From a virus, in the UHGV virus genome UHGV-0389216: a stretch of DNA of 42,736 bases; one strand, 5' to 3'. Positions 7,540-24,256 of the stretch are shown here, in pieces. Within the stretch, counting starts at the first letter, position 1. Each line of letters opens with the position of its first letter. The position numbers and the translations under genes are program-made. The notes below the pieces were generated by a model, which was not told the origin of the DNA, did not search any database, and saw only the letters and a list, made by a program, of their open reading frames with translations.

Positions 7540-8607
7540 TTATTGAAATTTATCTCGGATGAATTGCTGCGATGGTTTTTCAATGAATATATATGACATA
7601 TAGCTAATTGCCATTAATGTAAGCATGAATAAAATGAATACATTGGAGCTGTAAAAAAGATCGCGTCCATAGCCAATCCTGTCAGCTAAATAAACAGCAA
7701 TGATTTGCAAAGGAAAATGTAAAAGATAAGATGAATAACTGATATCACCCAACCATTCAATTTTCTTCCCAAAGTCGTTTCGCATTGCGCTAATTGATAC
7801 AAGGAAAAATATTATGGAGGTAAATCCAAATAAAATAATTGAGAATATATCTGCTACTTGCAGGATAAAAATAACTCCCCACGAGATTAATAGAAAAACA
7901 CAAGCGAAAATAAAAAATGATTTTGTGCCAATATTTTTTATGAACGCAATCGTAATTTTATAGGTCAGACCACCAATAAAGAAAGAGAATGCGCCGATCA
8001 TTATGGGATTGTTAATTTTGAAAAAGTAGTACGACAATGCAACTATTAAAATTGATATGAATGTTGTTTTTGATGTGAACTTGCATAATATAAAAAATAT
8101 CATGTACATAAGTACTTCAATCGACACGGACCATGTCGGTGCGTTGAAGGACCAACCTCGCTCAAATCCCCATGATTGAATCATCAATAAATTCAGAATG
8201 GCATGGTAAATGTCATTCATAGGATAAACAAAAAAATAATTATAACTTTTAAAGAAAATAATTTGTAATATTACCACGACAGCAAATGTAAATATATAAA
8301 GTGGATATAATCTACTGACACGGTTAACTATAAAAGTTTTTGCTGAGGTTTTATTGCTGTGTATATTGTCAGCGTATAGATAAAAAAATATGAATCCAGA
8401 AATCATAAAAAACAATTCGACAGCATATAAACCGTAATGATAAAAGACGGAAAAAAATTCATAAAAAGGTTGGCGGTTTATGATTATGTCAGATGCAGCA
8501 TTCTTTTTCATAAAAAAATGTTGCCAATGCCATAACACAACTGAAAGTGCGGCAAATCCTCTCAGAACATCTAGGGTATATATTCTTTTCCCAAAAACAT
8601 TCGTCAC
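7540..8607 (-). CDS. acyltransferase family 3 membrane protein, O-antigen acetylase-like
   Basis: 355 aa, GTG start. N-terminal LDVLRGFAALSVVLWHWQHFF motif and about 10 hydrophobic helices as in Oac/OafA-type acyltransferases; strongly AT-rich; opposite strand to tail genes. Confidence 0.75.
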   Translation of the reverse strand: MTNVFGKRIYTLDVLRGFAALSVVLWHWQHFFMKKNAASDIIINRQPFYEFFSVFYHYGLYAVELFFMISGFIFFYLYADNIHSNKTSAKTFIVNRVSRLYPLYIFTFAVVVILQIIFFKSYNYFFVYPMNDIYHAILNLLMIQSWGFERGWSFNAPTWSVSIEVLMYMIFFILCKFTSKTTFISILIVALSYYFFKINNPIMIGAFSFFIGGLTYKITIAFIKNIGTKSFFIFACVFLLISWGVIFILQVADIFSIILFGFTSIIFFLVSISAMRNDFGKKIEWLGDISYSSYLLHFPLQIIAVYLADRIGYGRDLFYSSNVFILFMLTLMAISYMSYIFIEKPSQQFIRDKFQ

Positions 8608-8849
8608 AACGAACCTCTTTTAATAAAGTCAAGTGATAATGAAAAGTAAATATTGTAAACGAAAAAACACTGGACTGGAACATATATCTCTGCCTGTAAT
8701 TTAACCAAGATAGTTTTACTAACATAATCATAATTCGTTTATATGAACACATCCCGTTTGCAAGGCATCCATTGTTATGACATTGACGGTAGGTTGCAGC
8801 TTTATATCCGGCTTTTTGCAGCCGCAAAGCTGCTAGCCCCTATGTAATT

Positions 8850-10260
8850 CGCTGACTCACACCTCATTTCCTGTGCGGGCTTTAAGCTCAAAGAATTATT
8901 CAGGTTTAGCGAGTCACGGTCTTACCTGTCGTTGTCATCACTCTGGCCGCCAGAGCAACCTTTCAGTATTCACCCTTTCATTAAAAGTTAATATTTATCG
9001 GTATCAGCGATTAATATGGTCTGATACTGACATGATTCTTGTCGTATTTACTTCCATGAGCTGCTATCGCCCATACTGTTCGTGCCAGTTTGTTTGCCAT
9101 GGCGACGATTGCCACGCTGGCTGGACGACGTTTTTTCAGTTCGGTTATCCACGGACCAGGTTCTTTGGTCAGTAATGCTGCCGCCCTTGCGCCATGAATA
9201 AACAAGGCTCGCAGATATGTATCACCACGTTTGCTTATCCCCAGCAGGCGGATTTTCCCTCCTGAGCCAGTCTGTTTGGGCACCAGACCAACATAAGCCG
9301 CGAACTCTCGCCCTGATTTAAACGCTGATGCTTCCCCCATGGTGGCCACCGCTGCCGTCGCAATAAGTGGCCCAACGCCGGGAATATCCAGCAACCGCTT
9401 ACAGGTTTCATTCTGTTTCGCCACGCTGGTAAGCTGTTTTTCAATATCCTCTATCAGTGAGTCCAGCTCATTCAGCCGGTTGTACTGGTTTTCCAGCACA
9501 GTAATGAGATACGGTGGCAGTCTCTCTTTCATCCGCTCCAGTGCTTCAGGGAACTCCCGCTCCATTGCTGCCCGACCTTTGTGAATTGTTTCACCAAATT
9601 CCAGGAGCGTGCCGTGCAGGGAGTTAATCTGCATGGTGCGGAACTTCACCAGTTGTCTGCGGGAACGATGCAGAACCAGTACCGACTGCTGTTCTTCTGT
9701 TTTGACAGCGATTTCCTTGCCGGGCTGTTGTACTGCCATCCAGATAGCCCGGGCATCCATAACATCGTTTTTATTACCCATGACGAACGCTTTAACGAAG
9801 CGGGCCTGCAACAACCGGACTTTATGACCCAGCTTTGTCAGTTCACGTGCCCAGTGCTGCGAGCCTCCACAGGCCTCCATACCAATCAGGCAGGGTTCCC
9901 GATTACAGAAGAACATCAGAAAATCCTGACGACGCAACTGCTTATCAATCACTTCACCTGTGTGCTCGTCGATGAAGTGAACCTGAATGACATGTTTTGC
10001 GATATCAACGCCAACCGGTGTATATTTCATTTGTGGAGTCTCCAGTCTGAAGGAGCTTTATGCATCCCGTATTGGGCACTATGATGCCGGAAATCTGCGA
10101 GGCTCCACACCTTCCTGTATTTCCCTTCATCTATCACTGTGCACCTTACTTAATGGGGGGGATGTGTTCATTACATTTCATGTATACCAGATGAAAGTGC
10201 ATGTTCTATGAAACAGGGTTTTGCCTGGAGTTTGAAGGGTTTTAAAGATTATACCTGTTT
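8850..10260 (-). mobile_element. IS110-family insertion sequence (boundaries approximate)
   Basis: Contains a single IS110-type transposase ORF with about 160 bp 3' and about 230 bp 5' non-coding flank. Exact ends not determinable by eye. Confidence 0.5.
9011..10030 (-). CDS. IS110-family transposase (DEDD-type)
   Basis: 339 aa starting MKYTPVGVDIAKHVIQVHFIDEHTGEV with ...GMEACGG...NDVMDARA..., the N-terminal DEDD fold pattern of IS110/IS1111 transposases; C-terminal domain follows. Confidence 0.85.
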   Translation of the reverse strand: MKYTPVGVDIAKHVIQVHFIDEHTGEVIDKQLRRQDFLMFFCNREPCLIGMEACGGSQHWARELTKLGHKVRLLQARFVKAFVMGNKNDVMDARAIWMAVQQPGKEIAVKTEEQQSVLVLHRSRRQLVKFRTMQINSLHGTLLEFGETIHKGRAAMEREFPEALERMKERLPPYLITVLENQYNRLNELDSLIEDIEKQLTSVAKQNETCKRLLDIPGVGPLIATAAVATMGEASAFKSGREFAAYVGLVPKQTGSGGKIRLLGISKRGDTYLRALFIHGARAAALLTKEPGPWITELKKRRPASVAIVAMANKLARTVWAIAAHGSKYDKNHVSIRPY

Positions 10261-10628
10261 AATCTGCTACCCATGTTTTTTGATATTATCCACCGCACAC
10301 GATACCGGATGCCAGGTAAACTGATTTGCTGGCACAAAGTCGCTGAGAATTCTTTACCAACAATATATTACCACATCTTTTCCCGCACAGTTTCGGCAAC
10401 AGAATCAGCGGGCGGCGGTCATCAATATTCACTAGACATTGATCTGCCGTACTATCTGACCTGTATTTTGCTGAGACTGCTTATTTCCAGTTTTTACTAG
10501 TGCTGTACTGGTACTGCCCAATCATGATTGGTGGGGGCGGAGTTGAGACCGCAGCCACGTCGTATGCAAGAACGTGCCACGGCTGGCTGATAAGCTTGTA
10601 AAAATCTTGAACAGGGAGTGGAGCATTT

Positions 10629-11276
10629 CTATGAAGCTAATTTGTTTAATTTCATTTGTAGCGACTTTACTTCTTGGTCGATAATGTTGAATCCCTTATT
10701 GACTGCATCTCTTAGCTCTGCATCAATATTTTTTATCCCTTGAGCATAATCTACCATTACATCTATTTTTGCATCATGTAATCTTTTATACATGGTTTTA
10801 TCTTTGTTATTGTCAGCCATACCAATAAGGATTTTTTCATAATCCTCAATGAGTTTGTTGTTTCCTTTAAATGATTGTATTAATGACCGTGAATATGTGT
10901 AGATATTAATTATTGAGTCTCTGGCAGAATCATTTAGTTTTGCAATGACATTCGCATTTTGCTCATAGAATGTGAAATTATCATCCCCTACAGGGAAAGT
11001 GAGAATTAACATCTGTCCGGGTTTGATATTATCAATGTGTGTTTTCATCCTTTTATTATATAAATTGATTAGGGTGAAAACTTCTCCCTTAACACCTTTT
11101 AATACTGAAAGTTGCAATTCAAGGGATTCTCTTTCTGTCTCTACTTTAGACAGCTTAGCTTGTTGGGTAACTCCTTTTAGGGTAAACCATCCGCCAATAA
11201 GAGTACCAACTAGAGCAGTGAGGGAGGAGGATAACCATCCAGGAATGCTATTTAAAAGATTACTAAATTCACTCAT
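10629..11276 (-). CDS. hypothetical membrane-anchored coiled-coil protein
   Basis: 215 aa; N-terminal hydrophobic helix (LSSSLTALVGTLIGGWFTL) then Lys/Glu-rich helical region; AT-rich; no family recognised. Confidence 0.45.
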   Translation of the reverse strand: MSEFSNLLNSIPGWLSSSLTALVGTLIGGWFTLKGVTQQAKLSKVETERESLELQLSVLKGVKGEVFTLINLYNKRMKTHIDNIKPGQMLILTFPVGDDNFTFYEQNANVIAKLNDSARDSIINIYTYSRSLIQSFKGNNKLIEDYEKILIGMADNNKDKTMYKRLHDAKIDVMVDYAQGIKNIDAELRDAVNKGFNIIDQEVKSLQMKLNKLAS

Positions 11277-11334
11277 TATAAGTACTCGCTAATATTGAAC
11301 GATATATATATCAAATTATTATGAAACTCGTCAG

Positions 11335-11613
11335 CTACTGGAGAAGGCTACCTGAACTTCGAGCTATTCCTGCATCCATATAGTTGATGGTCTTCTGGAG
11401 CTCTTCGATTAGGGCAACAGCTTTTGCTCGAGAAATGCATATTAGTTGATCCGGAAATTCTTGTAAGGGCCAGTTTGGTATACAGGCCATGTTATCAGTG
11501 AAGGATGCAGACAAGTAAACTTCATTGGTAACCAGAGAATAGCTTACCTCAAAATTGGTGAGTTCCGGCAAACTGCTAACGTTTGACTCTTTTCTGCGCA
11601 TAATATTATCCAT
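11335..11613 (-). CDS. hypothetical protein (start uncertain)
   Basis: Open frame runs to 11778, but the first 55 codons translate the tandem 12-mer repeat (LLNVLLNVLL). ATG at 11613 (MDNIMRRK...) is proposed as start; no clear SD. Confidence 0.35.
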   Translation of the reverse strand: MDNIMRRKESNVSSLPELTNFEVSYSLVTNEVYLSASFTDNMACIPNWPLQEFPDQLICISRAKAVALIEELQKTINYMDAGIARSSGSLLQ

Positions 11614-11750
11614 GACTGTAATTATATACAGGTGATGGTCTTCAATTTCGAAGAGGGAGTCAAGGGGAGTCTCAAATGAACCGTTATAGAAAGGGGGGGA
11701 TCTTTGTGTTGCTGAACTTATGCAAAATTTTTCGCACCATAAATCCAACA

Positions 11751-11782
11751 ACACATTCAATAACACATTCAATAACACATTA
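11751..11782. repeat. tandem direct repeat, 12-bp unit ACACATTCAATA (2.7 copies)
   Basis: ACACATTCAATA ACACATTCAATA ACACATTA read directly, in the AT-rich region upstream of int. Confidence 0.7.
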
Positions 11783-12081
11783 CCGTATCATCATGAAAAT
11801 AAATATATTTTTATTTAATTTCACACATATCACAATTAATACAGCGTTTAGTAATTAGTAAAGACATTTCAATGGATTACCGTTAAATCATTTTAAAATC
11901 AGTAAGTTGTATCGAGTTTGTATGCTTTACTGTCATTAACTTACTGTATGTTGATCCAGTGTATTTAACCTTGATAAACTCAGTCCAGCAACACAAAACC
12001 GCAACACATTGCATTTTGTCCCGTAGAAAAGACTTGTATGTGTGAGCTTGTTTTCTGCGCCTACGCAGATAAGGATTGAGA

Positions 12082-13479
12082 ATGCCGCGCACTGTAACAC
12101 ATAATCCGGATAGCCCCAATAATGACGATGTTTTAGCCGCATCTGAAAAATGGGACGCCTGTAAACCCCCCTATACCAGCGCACACATGAAAATCTGTGT
12201 TGCTGCCGCCAAAATCATCCTCGCTGCTTCCGGCGTGGCTCGCCGTTCCAAATACGAAAAAGAGAACTATCTCCGTATCGATTTCAGCAAAGCCGGTAAG
12301 GTTACATTTTACGCCGAGTTTCCAAAAAAGATGGGCCTCAAGGGTAAAAAGCTCGGCGAGTGGCCGGAGCTCGCTATCCAGCTGGCGCGCGAAAAAGCGC
12401 TAGGTATGGCTGACTGTGGCCTGCGGGCAGAGTCCGTACATGCAGCGCTGGAAATGTACCGGGATGACCTCAAAGCCAAAGTCGCCCGGCAGAAGCTGAG
12501 CCCGGACAGTTTCACAACCTACGGGGTGCGTATCGACCGGATTAAAGCAACGTTCGGCGAGCGCGAGGTGTTCAGCGACGTAACATACAATCGGCTGGTG
12601 GAAGTGCTGGACGAGTGGATCGCTACTCGCTCGAACAATAACGCCCTGGAGTTGTTTGCCGAGCTCCGTCGGTTCTGGAAGTTCTGCGCACCTACTCTTT
12701 GCAACGGCCGCAATGTTGCCGCCAGTCTGCCAGATGATTATGTTTCCTCCCGCGTACAGAAACCTACCCCCACACGGCTTTTTACCGATATTGAATCAAT
12801 CGCCCGACTCTGGCTCAATGTTGCTGCCTGCACCTCTGTACACCAGAAGAATGCTGTTCGCTTCATGATCATCACTGGCGTTCGTCCGATTAATGTCCAT
12901 AACCTGCGCTGGGACTACGTTCACGAGGAGGCTGGTGAAATTGTTTATCCGGAAGGGGTTATCGGCATGCGAGGGGCTATGAAAACACAAAAGGCTTTCC
13001 GCCTGCCGATAACGCCTGAGATCCGGCGGATTATCGACGAGCAGAAAGCCTGGCGTGATTCAGTTCCTGAGTGCAACAGGGATTATGTATTTTTGCAGCC
13101 ACGTGATCCAATGCAGCCATTTTCAAAACGATCACTGGATAAGCTGGTGAAAACATACAGCCCGGACGGGGCTGTAAAAGGAATAAAACATGATGGGACT
13201 GTTAAAGGGAAAGACGGTGCATTTAATACGATGTGCCGTAAATTCCTTAAGAGCAATGTTATTGCCTTGATGAAGGAAAGAGGCTATTCCCGATCAGACC
13301 GAAGGGAAATCAGCCTCCTTTGCCTTCACCACTCCAGTAAGTCAGATGACCCGATGGCAGAACATTACGACTTTTCTGATGAGATTTTACAGGAAGAGAT
13401 TGCGTTAAAGCGCGAAGCTTTCGAGGCTCACGAGCGGAGCATACTTGCGCAGGTGGCATTGCTACGGCGGCGAGGTTAA
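12082..13479 (+). CDS. int: tyrosine-type site-specific integrase
   Basis: ATG 12082 preceded by AAGGA. Contains ...MIITGVRPINVHNLRW... and C-terminal ...LCLHHSSKSD...AEHY consistent with R/H/Y catalytic boxes; adjacent convergent AlpA/Xis-like gene. Confidence 0.7.
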   Translation: MPRTVTHNPDSPNNDDVLAASEKWDACKPPYTSAHMKICVAAAKIILAASGVARRSKYEKENYLRIDFSKAGKVTFYAEFPKKMGLKGKKLGEWPELAIQLAREKALGMADCGLRAESVHAALEMYRDDLKAKVARQKLSPDSFTTYGVRIDRIKATFGEREVFSDVTYNRLVEVLDEWIATRSNNNALELFAELRRFWKFCAPTLCNGRNVAASLPDDYVSSRVQKPTPTRLFTDIESIARLWLNVAACTSVHQKNAVRFMIITGVRPINVHNLRWDYVHEEAGEIVYPEGVIGMRGAMKTQKAFRLPITPEIRRIIDEQKAWRDSVPECNRDYVFLQPRDPMQPFSKRSLDKLVKTYSPDGAVKGIKHDGTVKGKDGAFNTMCRKFLKSNVIALMKERGYSRSDRREISLLCLHHSSKSDDPMAEHYDFSDEILQEEIALKREAFEAHERSILAQVALLRRRG

Positions 13480-15129: not shown

Positions 15130-16047
15130 TTATAATAGTGCTGTTACTATTGCATCTTTAAAAATATTTTCTTCTTCATTTATTAAAGGTGATGACAGAT
15201 GAATAATTACTTCTTTTCCTGTCAATACTATTTGCTCGACTTGAAATCCTGCGTTGTGTAGTCTTTGGCGTAACTTTTCTAGTGCTGATTTTGATATACT
15301 AAATCCTTCACTCCTTATAGTATAACTGGCAACTCCATTTTTAATAATATCTACAGAGTTGTCAATTTCCTGCTGCGAGTAATTTTTCGGTGAGTCGAAA
15401 AATCTGGATTTTGTCGTTGCTGTTGCCCTAAGAGATATCAATAATGATTTGATATCTTTAATCTCAGATGCCAGATACTCAGTTTCTGATACTTCTTTCT
15501 GGTCTAGTTGTGCAACTTTGAAAGTGCCAAAATGTTTGAGGAATGTTGTGTATTCAGGATCAGTTACTGACTTTAAATATGTTTCTTTTATCTTGCTCGC
15601 AAGTCTTTCTTTGAATAAATTGATTGATTGGTATCTTAAATCCGAAGGGTACTCTAAATGTTCAATTGATGAAATGTCAAAGCTATAAGGAGTGCGCTCG
15701 TCCTTAATAATTACGGTCGGTTTGTCAAATGCGAGACGCATTCCTAATTCAAACATTACATTAGCGTTTCGAGCACTTATATCGCAAACAACTATGGGGT
15801 TTTCATAAAGATTTTGAACAATTCGTTTTTGTATTACTGCAACATCATCATCTGAACTTACCAAATTTGCCTTGAATCCGGCATCATTTGATGCTTCACA
15901 AATAATGTCATGAACATTTCTCCAATGTCCAGTGGGATAACCTTCTATGTCCGCAATTGGCATAATAATGCCGCATATATGAGGTGGCATATTTTTGTTG
16001 TCTTTTACATCATCTTGGTTTATTTCTTTCGTTTGTTGCTTAGCCAT
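15130..16047 (-). CDS. accessory protein with N-terminal Rossmann-like TIR/NDT-like domain and unknown C-terminal domain
   Basis: 305 aa. Residues about 20-140 show alternating hydrophobic strand/helix pattern with ...PIVVCDISARNANVMFELGMRLAFDKPTVII..., the NV-x-x-E-x-G motif class seen in nucleoside 2-deoxyribosyltransferase-like and TIR-like folds; AT-rich; hairpin terminator downstream. Confidence 0.45.
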   Translation of the reverse strand: MAKQQTKEINQDDVKDNKNMPPHICGIIMPIADIEGYPTGHWRNVHDIICEASNDAGFKANLVSSDDDVAVIQKRIVQNLYENPIVVCDISARNANVMFELGMRLAFDKPTVIIKDERTPYSFDISSIEHLEYPSDLRYQSINLFKERLASKIKETYLKSVTDPEYTTFLKHFGTFKVAQLDQKEVSETEYLASEIKDIKSLLISLRATATTKSRFFDSPKNYSQQEIDNSVDIIKNGVASYTIRSEGFSISKSALEKLRQRLHNAGFQVEQIVLTGKEVIIHLSSPLINEEENIFKDAIVTALL

Positions 16048-16776: not shown

Positions 16777-17538
16777 TTACGAGGAAGCGTTAGCTATTTG
16801 AGCTTGTGTAAATTCGAAACCAGAATTTTGTAACCGTTGCACTAGACGAGGAACTGTTTCACGTACATGGTCGTTGAAATTCAGATACAAAATCCCGTTA
16901 GCATCAGAAGGCTGTTCTAGGTGCTGTTTCTGAAGGATTGCTACATTGCTGCGCCCTAAGGACGAAAGAAGCATACCCATCTCGAGTACAACGTTCTGTC
17001 TTGCGCGGGGTTGGATTTCTGCTTCACCGGCGCGCTTTGAGTATCCCATATCATCAGGTGTCAAAAGAACAATCCCGAAACGGGTAGCAGTTTGTCCTTG
17101 CCCAATTTCACGTTCAAGCTCTTCAATAATGGTGAGTCCAGTCCCTCCCGTATTCTGCAAAATGAAATGGTCTGGTAATCCAAGTTTATGAAGGATTAGC
17201 TCAAGTTGTTCCTTTGCAGTATGGTCATGGCCGTGAACAATGAATATCTTTTTGGGAAGCTCAGATGGCTGTTCTACGGCTAGTGGTGTTGCCGTGGGGG
17301 GCGTTCCTAAATGGGACATTATTGCAGTTTCAACATTGGGACGTTCTTGAGGGTTACCTTGAAACTGAATGGTCCGGGTGGTGTAAAGGTTAACAATTAC
17401 GCCATTCGTTAAACGATAGCAGTCATAAGTCTCACGCTGTTCGTGGGAAAAATTGGTGAACCCACACTCCCTCAAAAAGTCAGGAAAAGATTCTCTCGGG
17501 TATGGATAGGTGATCGGCATTTCAGTTAGTTCCTGCAT
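16777..17538 (-). CDS. TIR-like (Cap12/PycTIR-type) nucleotide-binding domain protein with unassigned N-terminal domain
   Basis: 253 aa; C-terminal domain KKIFIVHGHDH...GIVLLTPDD...RQNVVLEMGMLLSSLGRSNVAIL matches the TIR-like predicted nucleotide-binding fold signature as I recall it; N-terminal 85 aa unassigned. Confidence 0.5.
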   Translation of the reverse strand: MQELTEMPITYPYPRESFPDFLRECGFTNFSHEQRETYDCYRLTNGVIVNLYTTRTIQFQGNPQERPNVETAIMSHLGTPPTATPLAVEQPSELPKKIFIVHGHDHTAKEQLELILHKLGLPDHFILQNTGGTGLTIIEELEREIGQGQTATRFGIVLLTPDDMGYSKRAGEAEIQPRARQNVVLEMGMLLSSLGRSNVAILQKQHLEQPSDANGILYLNFNDHVRETVPRLVQRLQNSGFEFTQAQIANASS

Positions 17539-23531: not shown

Positions 23532-24155
23532 CTAACGTTTACGGCGGTAAATACGGTGTTCGATCATTACACCTATGATCTGTAAGTTCATATCTGCACT
23601 ACGAAAAATAGGGTAATCAGGATTTAGGGGGATTAATTCAAAGTCGTCGATGCCGATTCCTAATGGACGGTATTTTTTAAATGTAGCTTCGTGACCGTCG
23701 TTTTTGGCGACAACAAACTCCCCTGGTGCAGGACATAGATCAGGATCGATGATAACAATGTCTCCTTCTTTAAACTCTGGTTGCATGCTGTCGCCATCGA
23801 TACGTAATGCGAAGCATGTTTCTGGAATGTCAGAGTCTGCCAAAATATATTCAAATTCCCCTGTCAGATCTGTTATGTCTCTTGCTTCTGTAAGCTCTCC
23901 TGCCTGAACGTAACTTAATATAGGTATGCGTCTGGTACTTATCTCCGCGAGAGGCATAATATTTTTACCGTTCAGTAGCCAGTCTGGGCTACATTTCAAG
24001 GCCTTAGCCAGATCCAGAAGATTGCGTGGCTTTCTGGTTCGTCCACTTTCGATGGATTCTATGGATTGTTGGCTAACCCCTGCAGAATTCGCTACTTCCA
24101 CTTGAGTCATTCCTAATTCCAAACGACGTGCTTTAAAACGGGCTGCGAGAGACAT
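23532..24155 (-). CDS. CI-like repressor (HTH plus S24 LexA-like peptidase domain)
   Basis: ATG 24155 with AGGA upstream; HTH MTQVEVANSAGVSQQSIESIESG; peptidase motif RIDGDSMQPEF; divergent from Cro-like gene. Confidence 0.85.
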   Translation of the reverse strand: MSLAARFKARRLELGMTQVEVANSAGVSQQSIESIESGRTRKPRNLLDLAKALKCSPDWLLNGKNIMPLAEISTRRIPILSYVQAGELTEARDITDLTGEFEYILADSDIPETCFALRIDGDSMQPEFKEGDIVIIDPDLCPAPGEFVVAKNDGHEATFKKYRPLGIGIDDFELIPLNPDYPIFRSADMNLQIIGVMIEHRIYRRKR

Positions 24156-24178
24156 GGGATTAGTCCTTCTGGGTTGTA

Positions 24179-24256
24179 TTAATGTGTATCCCCACATTAA
24201 AAACAATTTTTGTTGTATTTGACAAACCTCGTTTGTTGTTGCTAAATACCACTAAA
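24179..24256. promoter_or_regulatory. operator palindrome plus PR-like promoter of the immunity switch
   Basis: Perfect inverted repeat TTAATGTG-N6-CACATTAA (24179-24200); TTGACA (24219-24224), 18-bp spacer, TAAATA (24243-24248), then Cro start. Confidence 0.5.

What the first reader, a model, noticed from the sequence alone, without database searches (positions are those of the whole stretch)
10629..11778. Unknown AT-rich two-gene cassette beside int (candidate exclusion/defence or toxin-antitoxin module)
Two co-oriented minus-strand genes of no family I recognise sit in the cargo slot between tail-fibre genes and int, a classic position for lysogenic-conversion and defence genes. One (215 aa) has an N-terminal TM helix followed by a long charged coiled-coil-like region; the upstream one is about 92 aa if started at ATG 11613. 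Both are clearly more AT-rich than the phage core. The upstream ORF's 5' end runs through a tandem 12-mer repeat, suggesting the repeat is regulatory rather than coding.
Basis: inference. Interest (0 to 1): 0.65.

Follow-up and report, generated by a model that had tools for sequence, protein, structure and literature searches.

The report
SOS-controlled gene pair at prophage end
These are two unrelated, uncharacterised phage genes rather than a toxin-antitoxin or defence pair: a small gene behind a conserved DNA-damage (LexA) switch next to the phage attachment site, followed by a wandering membrane-anchored cargo gene of unknown function.

Summary
Both ORFs are real, conserved genes on the minus strand. 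Gene A is 10629-11276 (215 aa). Gene B is 11335-11601 (88 aa; the start is ATG 11601, not 11613).

They are not an obligate pair. A belongs to a large unannotated family (673 clusters) that occurs alone in prophages, an ICE-like region, plasmids and chromosomal islets. B is the outermost backbone gene of one prophage group, and the cargo behind it varies.

The window is a circular permutation, so the attP core (about 11820-11857) lies between B and int. The tandem 12-mer (11746-11781) is non-coding attP-arm DNA and is probably a set of integrase arm-type sites.

The main new result is a high-scoring LexA (SOS) box at 11614-11633, just downstream of a TTGACT -35 and immediately upstream of B. 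It is conserved in every B homologue, including two distant ones that are followed by dinI. A second box lies upstream of int.

My best reading is an SOS-inducible unit, P(LexA)-B-A. It is analogous, but not homologous, to the tum-orf97 SOS operon of coliphage 186.

The biochemical roles of A and B are unresolved. A is a candidate exclusion protein. B is a candidate SOS or repressor modulator.

The parts
10629..11276 (-). Gene A, 215 aa. Probable N-out/C-in membrane anchor (residues about 14-33) followed by a cytoplasmic helical bundle. Member of a large unannotated family. Mobile single-gene cargo.
   Evidence: ORF. Homologues. AF2 model. Hydropathy and charge bias. No family hits. No fold match beyond generic helical bundles.
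11277..11334 (-). 58-bp B-A spacer with no terminator-like hairpin and no consensus promoter. Read-through from the B promoter is inferred.
   Evidence: Fold is weaker than shuffles, z = +1.3. Promoter/terminator scan found nothing here.
11335..11601 (-). Gene B, 88 aa, acidic (pI 4.7). phrog_17793, unknown function. Outermost backbone gene of this prophage group.
   Evidence: Start codon. pI. Always next to host DNA or attP.
11614..11633 (.). LexA (SOS) box, GACTGTAATTATATACAGGT. It is the best-scoring site in the window and lies directly upstream of B.
   Evidence: Only CTGT-N8-ACAG match in the window. PWM score 19.4 against 12.4-27.5 for known sites. 0 of 40 shuffles reach it. Conserved in all B homologues.
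11635..11663 (-). Putative promoter of B: -35 TTGACT (11663-11658), 17-nt spacer, weak -10 GACCAT (11640-11635).
   Evidence: Read. TTGACT is conserved in 6 of 8 aligned homologue upstreams. It falls below the threshold of the generic promoter scan.
11746..11781 (.). Tandem 12-mer (CAATAACACATT x3) in the attP arm. Candidate arm-type integrase-binding sites.
   Evidence: TRF. 3 copies here against 2 in a relative. All four AACACATT in the window lie in the attP region, three here and one at 12003-12010.
11820..11857 (.). attP overlap region (the core is about 11820-11838, TTCACACATATCACAATTA), shared by attL and attR of the integrated prophage between yfhH and yfhL.
   Evidence: The attR match ends at 11857 and the attL match begins at 11820. 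Flanking host genes.
11942..11961 (.). Second LexA-box-like site, TACTGTATGTTGATCCAGTG, 121 bp upstream of the int start codon.
   Evidence: PWM score 18.3, second best in the window. 0 of 40 shuffles reach it, and it is conserved in attL of NZ_AP045064.
12082..13479 (+). Tyrosine integrase, 465 aa, divergent from B across attP.
   Evidence: Pfam Phage_integrase. PGAP annotation of the orthologue.
10544..10589 (.). 45-bp conserved stretch downstream of A. It is the right-hand homology anchor of the cargo slot. The same sequence lies downstream of tfa in HK97 and near the right ends of Stx phages.
8743..10176 (-). IS110-family insertion between the acyltransferase gene and gene A. It is not part of the unit.
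   Evidence: Absent from NZ_AP045064. Transposase domains.

Best explanation
The region is not a co-evolved two-gene system. It is the attachment-site-proximal end of a SEN34/606R2-like temperate myovirus, and it holds a LexA-repressed transcription unit.

Shown:
1. Gene B (88 aa) is a conserved backbone gene that always lies next to attP or attR.
2. B is preceded by a TTGACT -35 and a canonical SOS box that begins a few bases after the -10. This box is kept in every homologue examined, down to 29.5% protein identity.
3. Gene A is an independently mobile single gene that has been recombined into the cargo slot behind B.

Inferred:
1. In the lysogen, LexA keeps the B promoter shut.
2. DNA damage leads to LexA self-cleavage and opens the promoter. 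A second box upstream suggests int is opened at the same time.
3. B is then made. Because there is neither a terminator nor a recognisable promoter in the 58-bp spacer, A is made by read-through.
4. B most likely acts as a small SOS-phase modulator, either an antirepressor or a RecA/repressor-directed factor. Distant homologues sit directly upstream of dinI, which matches the split tum arrangement of PSP3 and Fels-2.
5. A is tethered to the inner membrane with its helical bundle in the cytoplasm. I guess that it is a superinfection-exclusion or abortive-infection-type protein, by analogy with Orf97 of coliphage 186.
6. The tandem 12-mer is part of the attP arm and probably binds the integrase.

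Rough probabilities:
- A and B are not an obligate pair: 0.9.
- LexA controls B: 0.8.
- The 12-mer is non-coding: 0.95.
- The 12-mer is a set of arm-type sites: 0.6.
- A is co-transcribed with B: 0.5.
- A is an exclusion or defence protein: 0.3.

The overall confidence of 0.55 refers to the core claim: an SOS-controlled unit made of two unrelated genes.
For: Independence of A and B:
- tblastn co-occurrence is limited to one E. coli lineage.
- No neighbour family of A recurs in more than 3 of 20 loci.
- A occurs alone next to HigBA, next to CcdAB in an ICE-like region, downstream of cI-HSDR_N in Providencia prophages, on plasmids of about 110 kb, beside TIR and DUF5677 genes, and in Pantoea prophages.
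- B homologues carry different cargo behind them.
- The identity profile shows a recombination joint inside B at about 11465-11500 and another at about 10560.

SOS control:
- The only CTGT-N8-ACAG in 42.7 kb lies at 11616-11631.
- It is the top PWM hit in the window at 19.4. The annotated 186 p95 LexA site scores 27.8 as a positive control, and 0 of 40 shuffles reach 18.3.
- Boxes scoring 18-26 lie upstream of B homologues in 606R2, other E. coli lineages, Salmonella, SEN34, Citrobacter, Fostie and YeP1.
- In the alignment of these upstream regions, the invariant columns are the box half-sites and the start codon.

dinI adjacency.

The 186 analogue is p95 with a LexA site, then tum, a partial terminator, and orf97. 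The record notes that orf97 'expression from plasmid blocks 186 infection'. Orf97 has N-terminal hydrophobic segments. The operon is cited in PMC5322425. LexA-controlled small antirepressors are described in PMC3121763.

B-A linkage: no hairpin in the spacer and no promoter or terminator called there.

Topology of A: K/R bias after the hydrophobic segment in 35/35 close and 50/59 distant relatives.

attP and the repeat.
Against: - No experiment or expression data were available, so LexA binding is predicted only.
- The -10 of the B promoter is poor in the window (GACCAT), and the generic scan did not call it.
- B shows no detectable similarity to Tum, GftA or DinI (hhalign probability below 1%).
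- The phage's own CI has an intact S24 autocleavage module, with an Ala-Gly site, GDSM and a lysine. An antirepressor is therefore not needed for its induction.
- A is not homologous to Orf97 or IrsA. It hits no PADLOC model.
- A was not found by tblastn in 50,697 deposited phage genomes.
- Elsewhere A has its own promoter region or sits in a cI operon. SOS control is therefore not intrinsic to A.
- The window copy has the least hydrophobic anchor of its family.
Confidence: 0.55

Rival explanations
1. A and B form one co-evolved two-gene module, either a toxin-antitoxin or a two-component defence or exclusion system, expressed constitutively in lysogens.
For: - The genes are co-oriented, 58 bp apart and have no terminator between them.
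- They sit in a cargo slot.
- The size pattern, a small acidic protein followed by a larger basic membrane protein, superficially resembles an antitoxin-toxin pair.
Against: - Co-occurrence is restricted to one lineage.
- A mosaic joint lies inside B.
- A has no conserved neighbour in 20 loci.
- B is paired with other cargo or with dinI elsewhere.
- There are no toxin-antitoxin or defence family hits.
- A LexA box argues against constitutive expression.
Confidence: 0.04
2. A is an autonomous single-gene moron with its own weak promoter. It is expressed in the lysogen and acts as a stand-alone membrane exclusion or abortive-infection factor. B is functionally unrelated and merely provides a homology anchor for cargo exchange.
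For: - In other genomes A carries its own upstream region of about 150 bp with a TATAAT/TATAGT element, or it lies in the cI operon.
- A is always solitary.
- It is found in typical defence or accessory neighbourhoods, with HigBA, CcdAB, HSDR_N, TIR and AbiTii nearby.
- It is AT-rich, as expected for horizontally acquired cargo.
Against: - The window copy has lost that upstream region. Only 58 bp separate it from B, with no promoter called.
- There are no PADLOC or PHROG functional hits.
- There is no phenotype evidence.
Confidence: 0.3
3. B is a recombination-directionality or excision accessory factor. It would be co-induced with int by LexA and act at the adjacent attP/attR arm.
For: - B always abuts the attachment site.
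- In the window, LexA-box-like sites flank attP on both sides, one before B and one before int.
- The arm next to B carries the repeated motif.
Against: - B homologues are kept next to quite different integrases: 465 aa here, 393 aa in SEN34, 336 aa in Fostie with its own annotated excisionase.
- B is acidic (pI 4.7), whereas, from general knowledge, known directionality factors are small basic DNA binders.
- An HTH_17 Xis/AlpA-like gene already lies next to int.
- The box before int was not seen in SEN34.
Confidence: 0.1
4. The ORFs or the 12-mer repeat are chance features, or the long 147-aa frame is the true B protein with a repeat-encoded N-terminus.
For: The open frame does run from GTG 11778 through the repeat, and some gene callers report proteins of 140-145 aa.
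Against: - Orthologues in three genera are 87-88 aa.
- A 1-nt indel and a 12-nt copy-number change occur in the extension in a 97.6%-identical relative.
- The promoter and the SOS box lie inside the supposed extension.
- Both genes are conserved across genera.
Confidence: 0.02

Closest known systems
SOS operon of coliphage 186 (p95 - tum - orf97)
   Same: - A LexA box overlaps the promoter.
- The first gene is a small SOS-phase protein.
- It is followed, without a full terminator, by a membrane protein gene. Expression of that gene from a plasmid blocks infection by 186 (record annotation; translation; PMC5322425).
- The unit lies outside the immunity region, at the right end of the 186 genome record.
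   Different: - There is no detectable sequence similarity: B against Tum and A against Orf97 both give hhalign probability 0.4%.
- B has no DinI-like half.
- 186 CI is non-cleavable and needs Tum, whereas this phage's CI has an intact S24 module.
- A is a mobile gene that is also found outside any SOS context.
LexA-controlled dinI-antirepressor-irsA operons of Gifsy prophages, and the split tum of PSP3 and Fels-2 (PMC3121763)
   Same: - Small genes of about 70-90 aa lie outside the immunity region under direct LexA control.
- Distant B homologues in phages Fostie and YeP1 lie immediately upstream of dinI. The paper describes the same order, antirepressor then dinI, for PSP3.
   Different: - B is not similar to GftA, and A is not similar to the IrsA homologue.
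- The window phage has no dinI next to B.
- B occurs with cleavable repressors (window, YeP1) as well as with a short CI-like repressor (Fostie).
Prophage superinfection-exclusion and abortive-infection morons (for example lambda RexAB, SieB, HK97 gp15, lactococcal Sie2009; recalled from general knowledge)
   Same: A is a small membrane-associated protein in cargo slots. These slots lie next to att, or directly downstream of cI as in the Providencia prophages. A is AT-rich and patchily distributed.
   Different: - There is no sequence or fold relationship to any of them (Pfam, PHROG and PADLOC negative).
- The fold is a generic helical bundle.
- The phenotype is untested.
Arm-type integrase-binding sites of lambda-like attP (P and P' arms; general knowledge)
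   Same: - Short direct repeats lie about 40-75 bp from the core.
- The same 8-mer recurs on the int-side arm.
- A related phage with another integrase has a different repeated motif, TGTACTCA, in the equivalent positions.
   Different: - The units here are in perfect 12-bp tandem, and the copy number varies between 2 and 3.
- No binding data exist.
- No arm-binding domain was detected in the integrase by Pfam.

Membership tests
Type II toxin-antitoxin module | The two genes are conserved together as a pair across genomes | tested here: not met
   A and B co-occur only in one E. coli prophage lineage. No conserved neighbour of A in 20 loci. B has other downstream genes elsewhere.
Type II toxin-antitoxin module | Homology to known toxin or antitoxin families | tested here: not met
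   Pfam, NCBIfam and PADLOC give no hits for either protein or for their relatives.
Type II toxin-antitoxin module | The toxin arrests growth and the cognate antitoxin neutralises it | not testable with these tools
   This needs cloning and expression of A with and without B.
Known anti-phage defence systems (PADLOC-DB v2) | Match to a defence protein HMM | tested here: not met
   No family at E<=1 for A or B. Only scattered single weak hits among 59 distant relatives of A.
LexA (SOS) regulon | A 20-bp SOS box (CTGT-N8-ACAG core) overlapping or abutting the promoter | tested here: met
   Box at 11614-11633. It is the only core match in the window, the top PWM hit at 19.4 and within the range of known sites, and 0 of 40 shuffles reach it. 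It lies 1-4 nt after the putative -10.
LexA (SOS) regulon | The box is conserved upstream of orthologues while the flanks diverge | tested here: met
   Boxes scoring 18-26 lie upstream of B homologues in eight lineages, down to 29.5% protein identity. The half-sites are invariant in the alignment.
LexA (SOS) regulon | LexA binding and DNA-damage induction | not testable with these tools
   Requires EMSA or ChIP, and reporter assays or RNA-seq with and without mitomycin C.
Coliphage 186 SOS operon (tum/orf97) | Sequence homology of the two products to Tum and Orf97 | tested here: not met
   hhalign probability is 0.4% for both comparisons.
Coliphage 186 SOS operon (tum/orf97) | A LexA-repressed promoter driving a small gene and then a membrane protein gene | tested here: inconclusive
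   The box, the gene order and the probable membrane anchor are present. Co-transcription is inferred only from the lack of a terminator or promoter in the spacer.
Gifsy-type LexA-controlled antirepressors (GfoA/GftA) | Sequence similarity to GftA | tested here: not met
   hhalign probability 0.1%. tblastn of B finds no Gifsy phage.
Gifsy-type LexA-controlled antirepressors (GfoA/GftA) | The cognate repressor is non-cleavable (no S24 domain) | tested here: not met
   The window CI (23532..24206) has HTH_3 plus Peptidase_S24 with Ala-Gly, GDSM and a lysine. YeP1 also has a LexA-like repressor. Fostie has a short CI-like repressor of 130 aa.
DinI family | Similarity of B to DinI | tested here: not met
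   hhalign probability 0.4%. No Pfam DinI hit.
attP arm-type integrase-binding sites (for the 12-mer repeat) | Repeated motif located in both attP arms, outside the core | tested here: met
   Core at about 11820-11857. Repeat at 11746-11781. All four AACACATT in the window lie in the attP region, including 12003-12010 on the int side.
attP arm-type integrase-binding sites (for the 12-mer repeat) | The motif changes with the integrase in related phages | tested here: inconclusive
   SEN34 has a different integrase and TGTACTCA three times, all within its int-B intergenic region. This is a single comparison.
attP arm-type integrase-binding sites (for the 12-mer repeat) | Binding by the integrase N-terminal domain | not testable with these tools
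   Needs footprinting. Pfam finds only the catalytic domain in the integrase.

The most novel reading that the evidence does not exclude
Two undescribed families are joined here.

B (phrog_17793 and its distant relatives next to dinI) would be a new class of LexA-controlled phage switch proteins. It might be an antirepressor or a RecA/LexA modulator that can act in trans on co-resident prophages.

The A family has 673 clusters at 50% identity and no annotation anywhere. It would be a new single-gene, membrane-tethered anti-phage or exclusion factor. In this phage it would be deployed only during the SOS or induction window. It would move between elements as a discrete module of about 1 kb bounded by inverted repeats.
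Probability: 0.2. Interest if true: 0.7.

Novelty: new variant of a known kind. Interest (0 to 1): 0.45.

Why it matters
If the reading is right, this prophage group connects part of its cargo, and probably its integrase, directly to the host SOS repressor, in addition to having a cleavable CI. That is the logic known from 186, Gifsy and N15, but built here from unrelated proteins.

It would make two orphan families directly testable:
- B is a small SOS-box-linked protein that sits next to dinI in other phages.
- A belongs to a widespread unannotated family of membrane-anchored helical-bundle proteins that recurs in the slots where exclusion and defence genes are usually found.

The case also shows how cargo is swapped in these phages. 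The exchange uses homologous anchors, one inside B and one in a 45-bp sequence shared with lambdoid phages.

In practical terms, the finding should not be catalogued as a toxin-antitoxin or two-gene defence system.

Tried and rejected
Family and structure searches that gave nothing:
- Pfam, NCBIfam, PADLOC and PHROGs on A, on B and on alignments of their relatives gave no informative family. The only hit was phrog_17793 (unknown function) for B.
- Profile searches against PDB sequences gave nothing.
- The AF2 model of B was too poor (pLDDT 62) to search with.

Direct homology tests, all negative: B against DinI, Tum and GftA; A against Orf97 and the IrsA homologue.

Other negative checks:
- No tRNA, tmRNA or Rfam family lies in or near the region. 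I therefore dropped the idea that the sequence downstream of A is a tRNA fragment.
- No literature mentions the protein accessions.
- tblastn of A against deposited phages found nothing.
- A genome-contig scan returned only 7 loci.

Idea rejected: B as the phage's required antirepressor, because CI has an intact autocleavage module.

Left open: an integron-attC reading of the hairpin upstream of A-family modules. The stems differ between contexts and only the right-hand end is conserved.
Full report
**What is there.**
The minus strand carries two ORFs: 10629..11276 (215 aa, gene A) and an open frame 11335..11778. Both are real genes.

- A has more than 200 homologues of 215-223 aa at 60-74% identity across Enterobacterales, all labelled hypothetical.
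- A profile search finds 673 representative clusters with E<=1e-3 and 256 with E<=1e-10. Nearly all are 185-230 aa.
- B has 58 homologues in Escherichia, Salmonella and Citrobacter, almost all 87-88 aa.
- A is 33.5% GC and B is 43.4%, against 49.4% for the window.

**Start of B and the 5' extension.**
Orthologues align from ATG 11601 and have a conserved ribosome-binding site. ATG 11613 is CTG in phage vB_EcoM-606R2. A 97.6%-identical E. coli relative has a 1-nt G-tract indel and one fewer 12-mer inside the supposed N-terminal extension. B is therefore 88 aa, and the stretch 11602-11778 is non-coding.

**Genomic setting.**
- Upstream of the region lie baseplate J, DUF2612, a glycine-rich tail fibre, a tail-fibre assembly protein and an Acyl_transf_3 protein (7540..8607). 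An IS110-family element (8743-10176) follows, and a close relative lacks it.
- Downstream lie a 465-aa tyrosine integrase (12082..13479), an HTH_17 Xis-like gene and an SNF2 helicase.
- In E. coli chromosomes the same phage is integrated between yfhH and yfhL. A and B sit at the yfhH end and int at the yfhL end.
- Matches to attR stop at window 11857 and matches to attL start at 11820. The window is therefore a circular permutation, with the attP core at about 11820-11838.
- A occurs in 80 of 5426 complete E. coli genomes. This allele of B occurs in 125. Both are always chromosomal.

**Not a pair.**
- tblastn over all fetched loci shows A with B only in this E. coli lineage. A homologues at 73% identity or less lack B, and B homologues in other genera lack A.
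- Behind B, Salmonella prophages carry two small genes and a GT4 glycosyltransferase. Citrobacter prophages carry nothing before the tail-fibre invertase. 606R2 carries a 281-aa gene, and SEN34 carries an acyltransferase.
- A homologues occur alone in many settings:
  - next to HigBA in Enterobacter;
  - with CcdAB and IS110 in an ICE-like Dickeya region;
  - directly downstream of cI and an HSDR_N protein in Providencia lambdoid prophages;
  - on IncFIB plasmids of about 110 kb;
  - beside TIR and DUF5677 genes;
  - in a Pantoea prophage.
- Clustering of 265 neighbouring ORFs from 20 loci finds no partner shared by more than three loci, and those three are related prophages.
- Against E. coli prophages with a different att region, identity is about 70% in the 5' part of B. 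It jumps to 92-98% from about 11500 to about 10560.
- The cargo has therefore been exchanged by recombination between an anchor inside B and a 45-bp sequence (10544-10589). That sequence also lies just downstream of tfa in HK97 and near the right ends of Stx phages.

**The SOS box.**
- Upstream of B lies TTGACT (11663-11658), then 17 nt and a weak -10, then GACTGTAATTATATACAGGT (11614-11633).
- Its core is the only CTGT-N8-ACAG in the 42.7-kb window.
- I built a position weight matrix from E. coli SOS boxes that I recalled from memory. With it, this site is the best hit in the window, scoring 19.4 against 12.4-27.5 (median 20.6) for the known sites.
- The same matrix recovers the annotated LexA site of 186 p95 (27.8). 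None of 40 shuffles of the window reaches 18.3.
- A box scoring 18-26 lies in the same place before every B homologue examined: 606R2, three other E. coli lineages, Salmonella, SEN34, Citrobacter, phage Fostie (50% protein identity) and Yersinia phage YeP1 (29.5%).
- In the alignment of these upstream regions, the invariant columns are the two box half-sites and the start codon.
- The second-best hit in the window (11942-11961, score 18.3) lies between the attP core and int. It is conserved in attL of a lysogen.

**What B might be.**
- B is acidic (pI 4.7) and has no family assignment other than phrog_17793.
- Its AF2 model is poor (pLDDT 62).
- In Fostie and YeP1, its homologue is followed directly by dinI. 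PMC3121763 describes that order for the split tum of PSP3, where the upstream gene is the antirepressor. The same paper describes LexA-controlled dinI-antirepressor-irsA operons in Gifsy prophages.
- However, B shows no similarity to Tum, GftA or DinI.
- The phage's CI (23532..24206) has a complete S24 autocleavage module.
- B also occurs with both cleavable and short repressors.

An SOS-phase modulator is the most economical guess. A role as the phage's essential antirepressor is unlikely, and a directionality-factor role is a weaker rival.

**What A might be.**
- The AF2 model (pLDDT 83.7, pTM 0.70) has an N-terminal hydrophobic helix that runs into a long helix (13-76). A conserved loop (FPxGDDNFTFYEQNA) and two further long helices follow.
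- The hydrophobic segment reaches the usual transmembrane threshold in 90-94% of relatives. The window copy is the weakest at 1.35.
- Lysine and arginine are enriched after the segment in 35/35 close and 50/59 distant relatives. This indicates an N-out, C-in topology with a cytoplasmic bundle.
- Fold searches give only generic helical bundles.
- No defence, exclusion or other family matches.

Function therefore rests on context. A is solitary, patchy and AT-rich. It sits in prophage end or cI-proximal slots and beside toxin-antitoxin or TIR genes. This fits an exclusion or abortive-infection-type factor but does not prove it.

**Link between B and A here.**
The 58-bp spacer has no hairpin, and no promoter or terminator is called there. 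Elsewhere A has its own upstream region of about 150 bp, which this copy lacks. Read-through from the LexA-controlled promoter is therefore inferred.

**Closest analogue.**
[quoted passage not shown] It has p95 with a LexA site, then tum, a partial terminator, and orf97. orf97 encodes a protein with N-terminal hydrophobic segments, and the record notes that its expression from a plasmid 'blocks 186 infection'. The resemblance is architectural only, because neither product is homologous.

**The 12-mer.**
- The 12-mer has three copies here and two in relatives. It lies about 40-75 bp from the core.
- All four AACACATT in the window are in the attP region, three in the repeat and one on the int side.
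- SEN34, which has a different integrase, carries TGTACTCA three times in its int-B intergenic region.
- Integrase arm-type sites are the best explanation, but this is untested.

**Verdict.**
The toxin-antitoxin or two-gene-defence interpretation is not supported. The region is best described as a LexA-controlled prophage-end unit made of a conserved small gene and a swapped-in orphan membrane protein gene. This is a new variant of a known regulatory layout, and the biochemical functions are unresolved.

Noticed in passing
window 16777-17538 (-) and 15130-16047 (-): A 253-aa protein with a CAP12/Pycsar-effector TIR domain (Pfam E = 2.9e-31) lies in the early region. Next to it is an AT-rich (34-36% GC) 305-aa ORF with no Pfam hit. 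Together they may form a second defence or counter-defence cargo spot.
   Followed up: no
window 11942-11961: A second LexA-box-like site (TACTGTATGTTGATCCAGTG, PWM 18.3) lies 121 bp upstream of the int start codon. It is conserved in attL of NZ_AP045064. The integrase may be under direct SOS control.
   Followed up: partly
window 8743-10176: An IS110-family insertion of 1434 bp (transposase 9011..10030) lies between the O-antigen-type acyltransferase gene and gene A. It is absent from NZ_AP045064.
   Followed up: partly
L010 5775-5850 and 6655-6680; L004, L014, L037, L043 equivalents: In other genomes the A-family gene lies in a module of about 0.9-1 kb. Its homology begins at GCCAGAAGCGGAAGTTAAAC and ends about 25 bp after the stop codon at GGTTACTTCCGCTCTTCGC, and these ends are imperfect inverted repeats. 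In Dickeya a second right-end-like arm makes a palindrome with 28-nt arms. In Providencia the internal promoter region is deleted. This looks like a discrete mobile cassette of unknown mechanism. The window copy lacks these ends.
   Followed up: partly
window 10544-10589: A 45-bp stretch is shared at 91-95% identity with HK97 and HK106, where it lies just downstream of tfa and before sib/attP. It is also shared with many Stx phages near their right ends. It marks the right boundary of the exchanged A segment.
   Followed up: partly
window 11693-11699: A G7 tract lies between the 12-mer repeat and the -35 of the B promoter. It is G8 in NZ_AP045064, so there is length variation in a homopolymer just upstream of a promoter.
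   Followed up: no
L062 (phage Fostie) 3431-4008; L064 (Yersinia phage YeP1) 3495-4026: Distant B homologues are immediately followed by dinI. Each is preceded by a strong SOS box (scores 20.6 and 26.3). This forms an unannotated B-dinI SOS unit next to the attachment region in unrelated phages.
   Followed up: partly
E. coli RefSeq genomes, e.g. NC_017633.1 2952704-2953050: Gene B is often left unannotated in RefSeq records ('none' under the match), although it is conserved.
   Followed up: no
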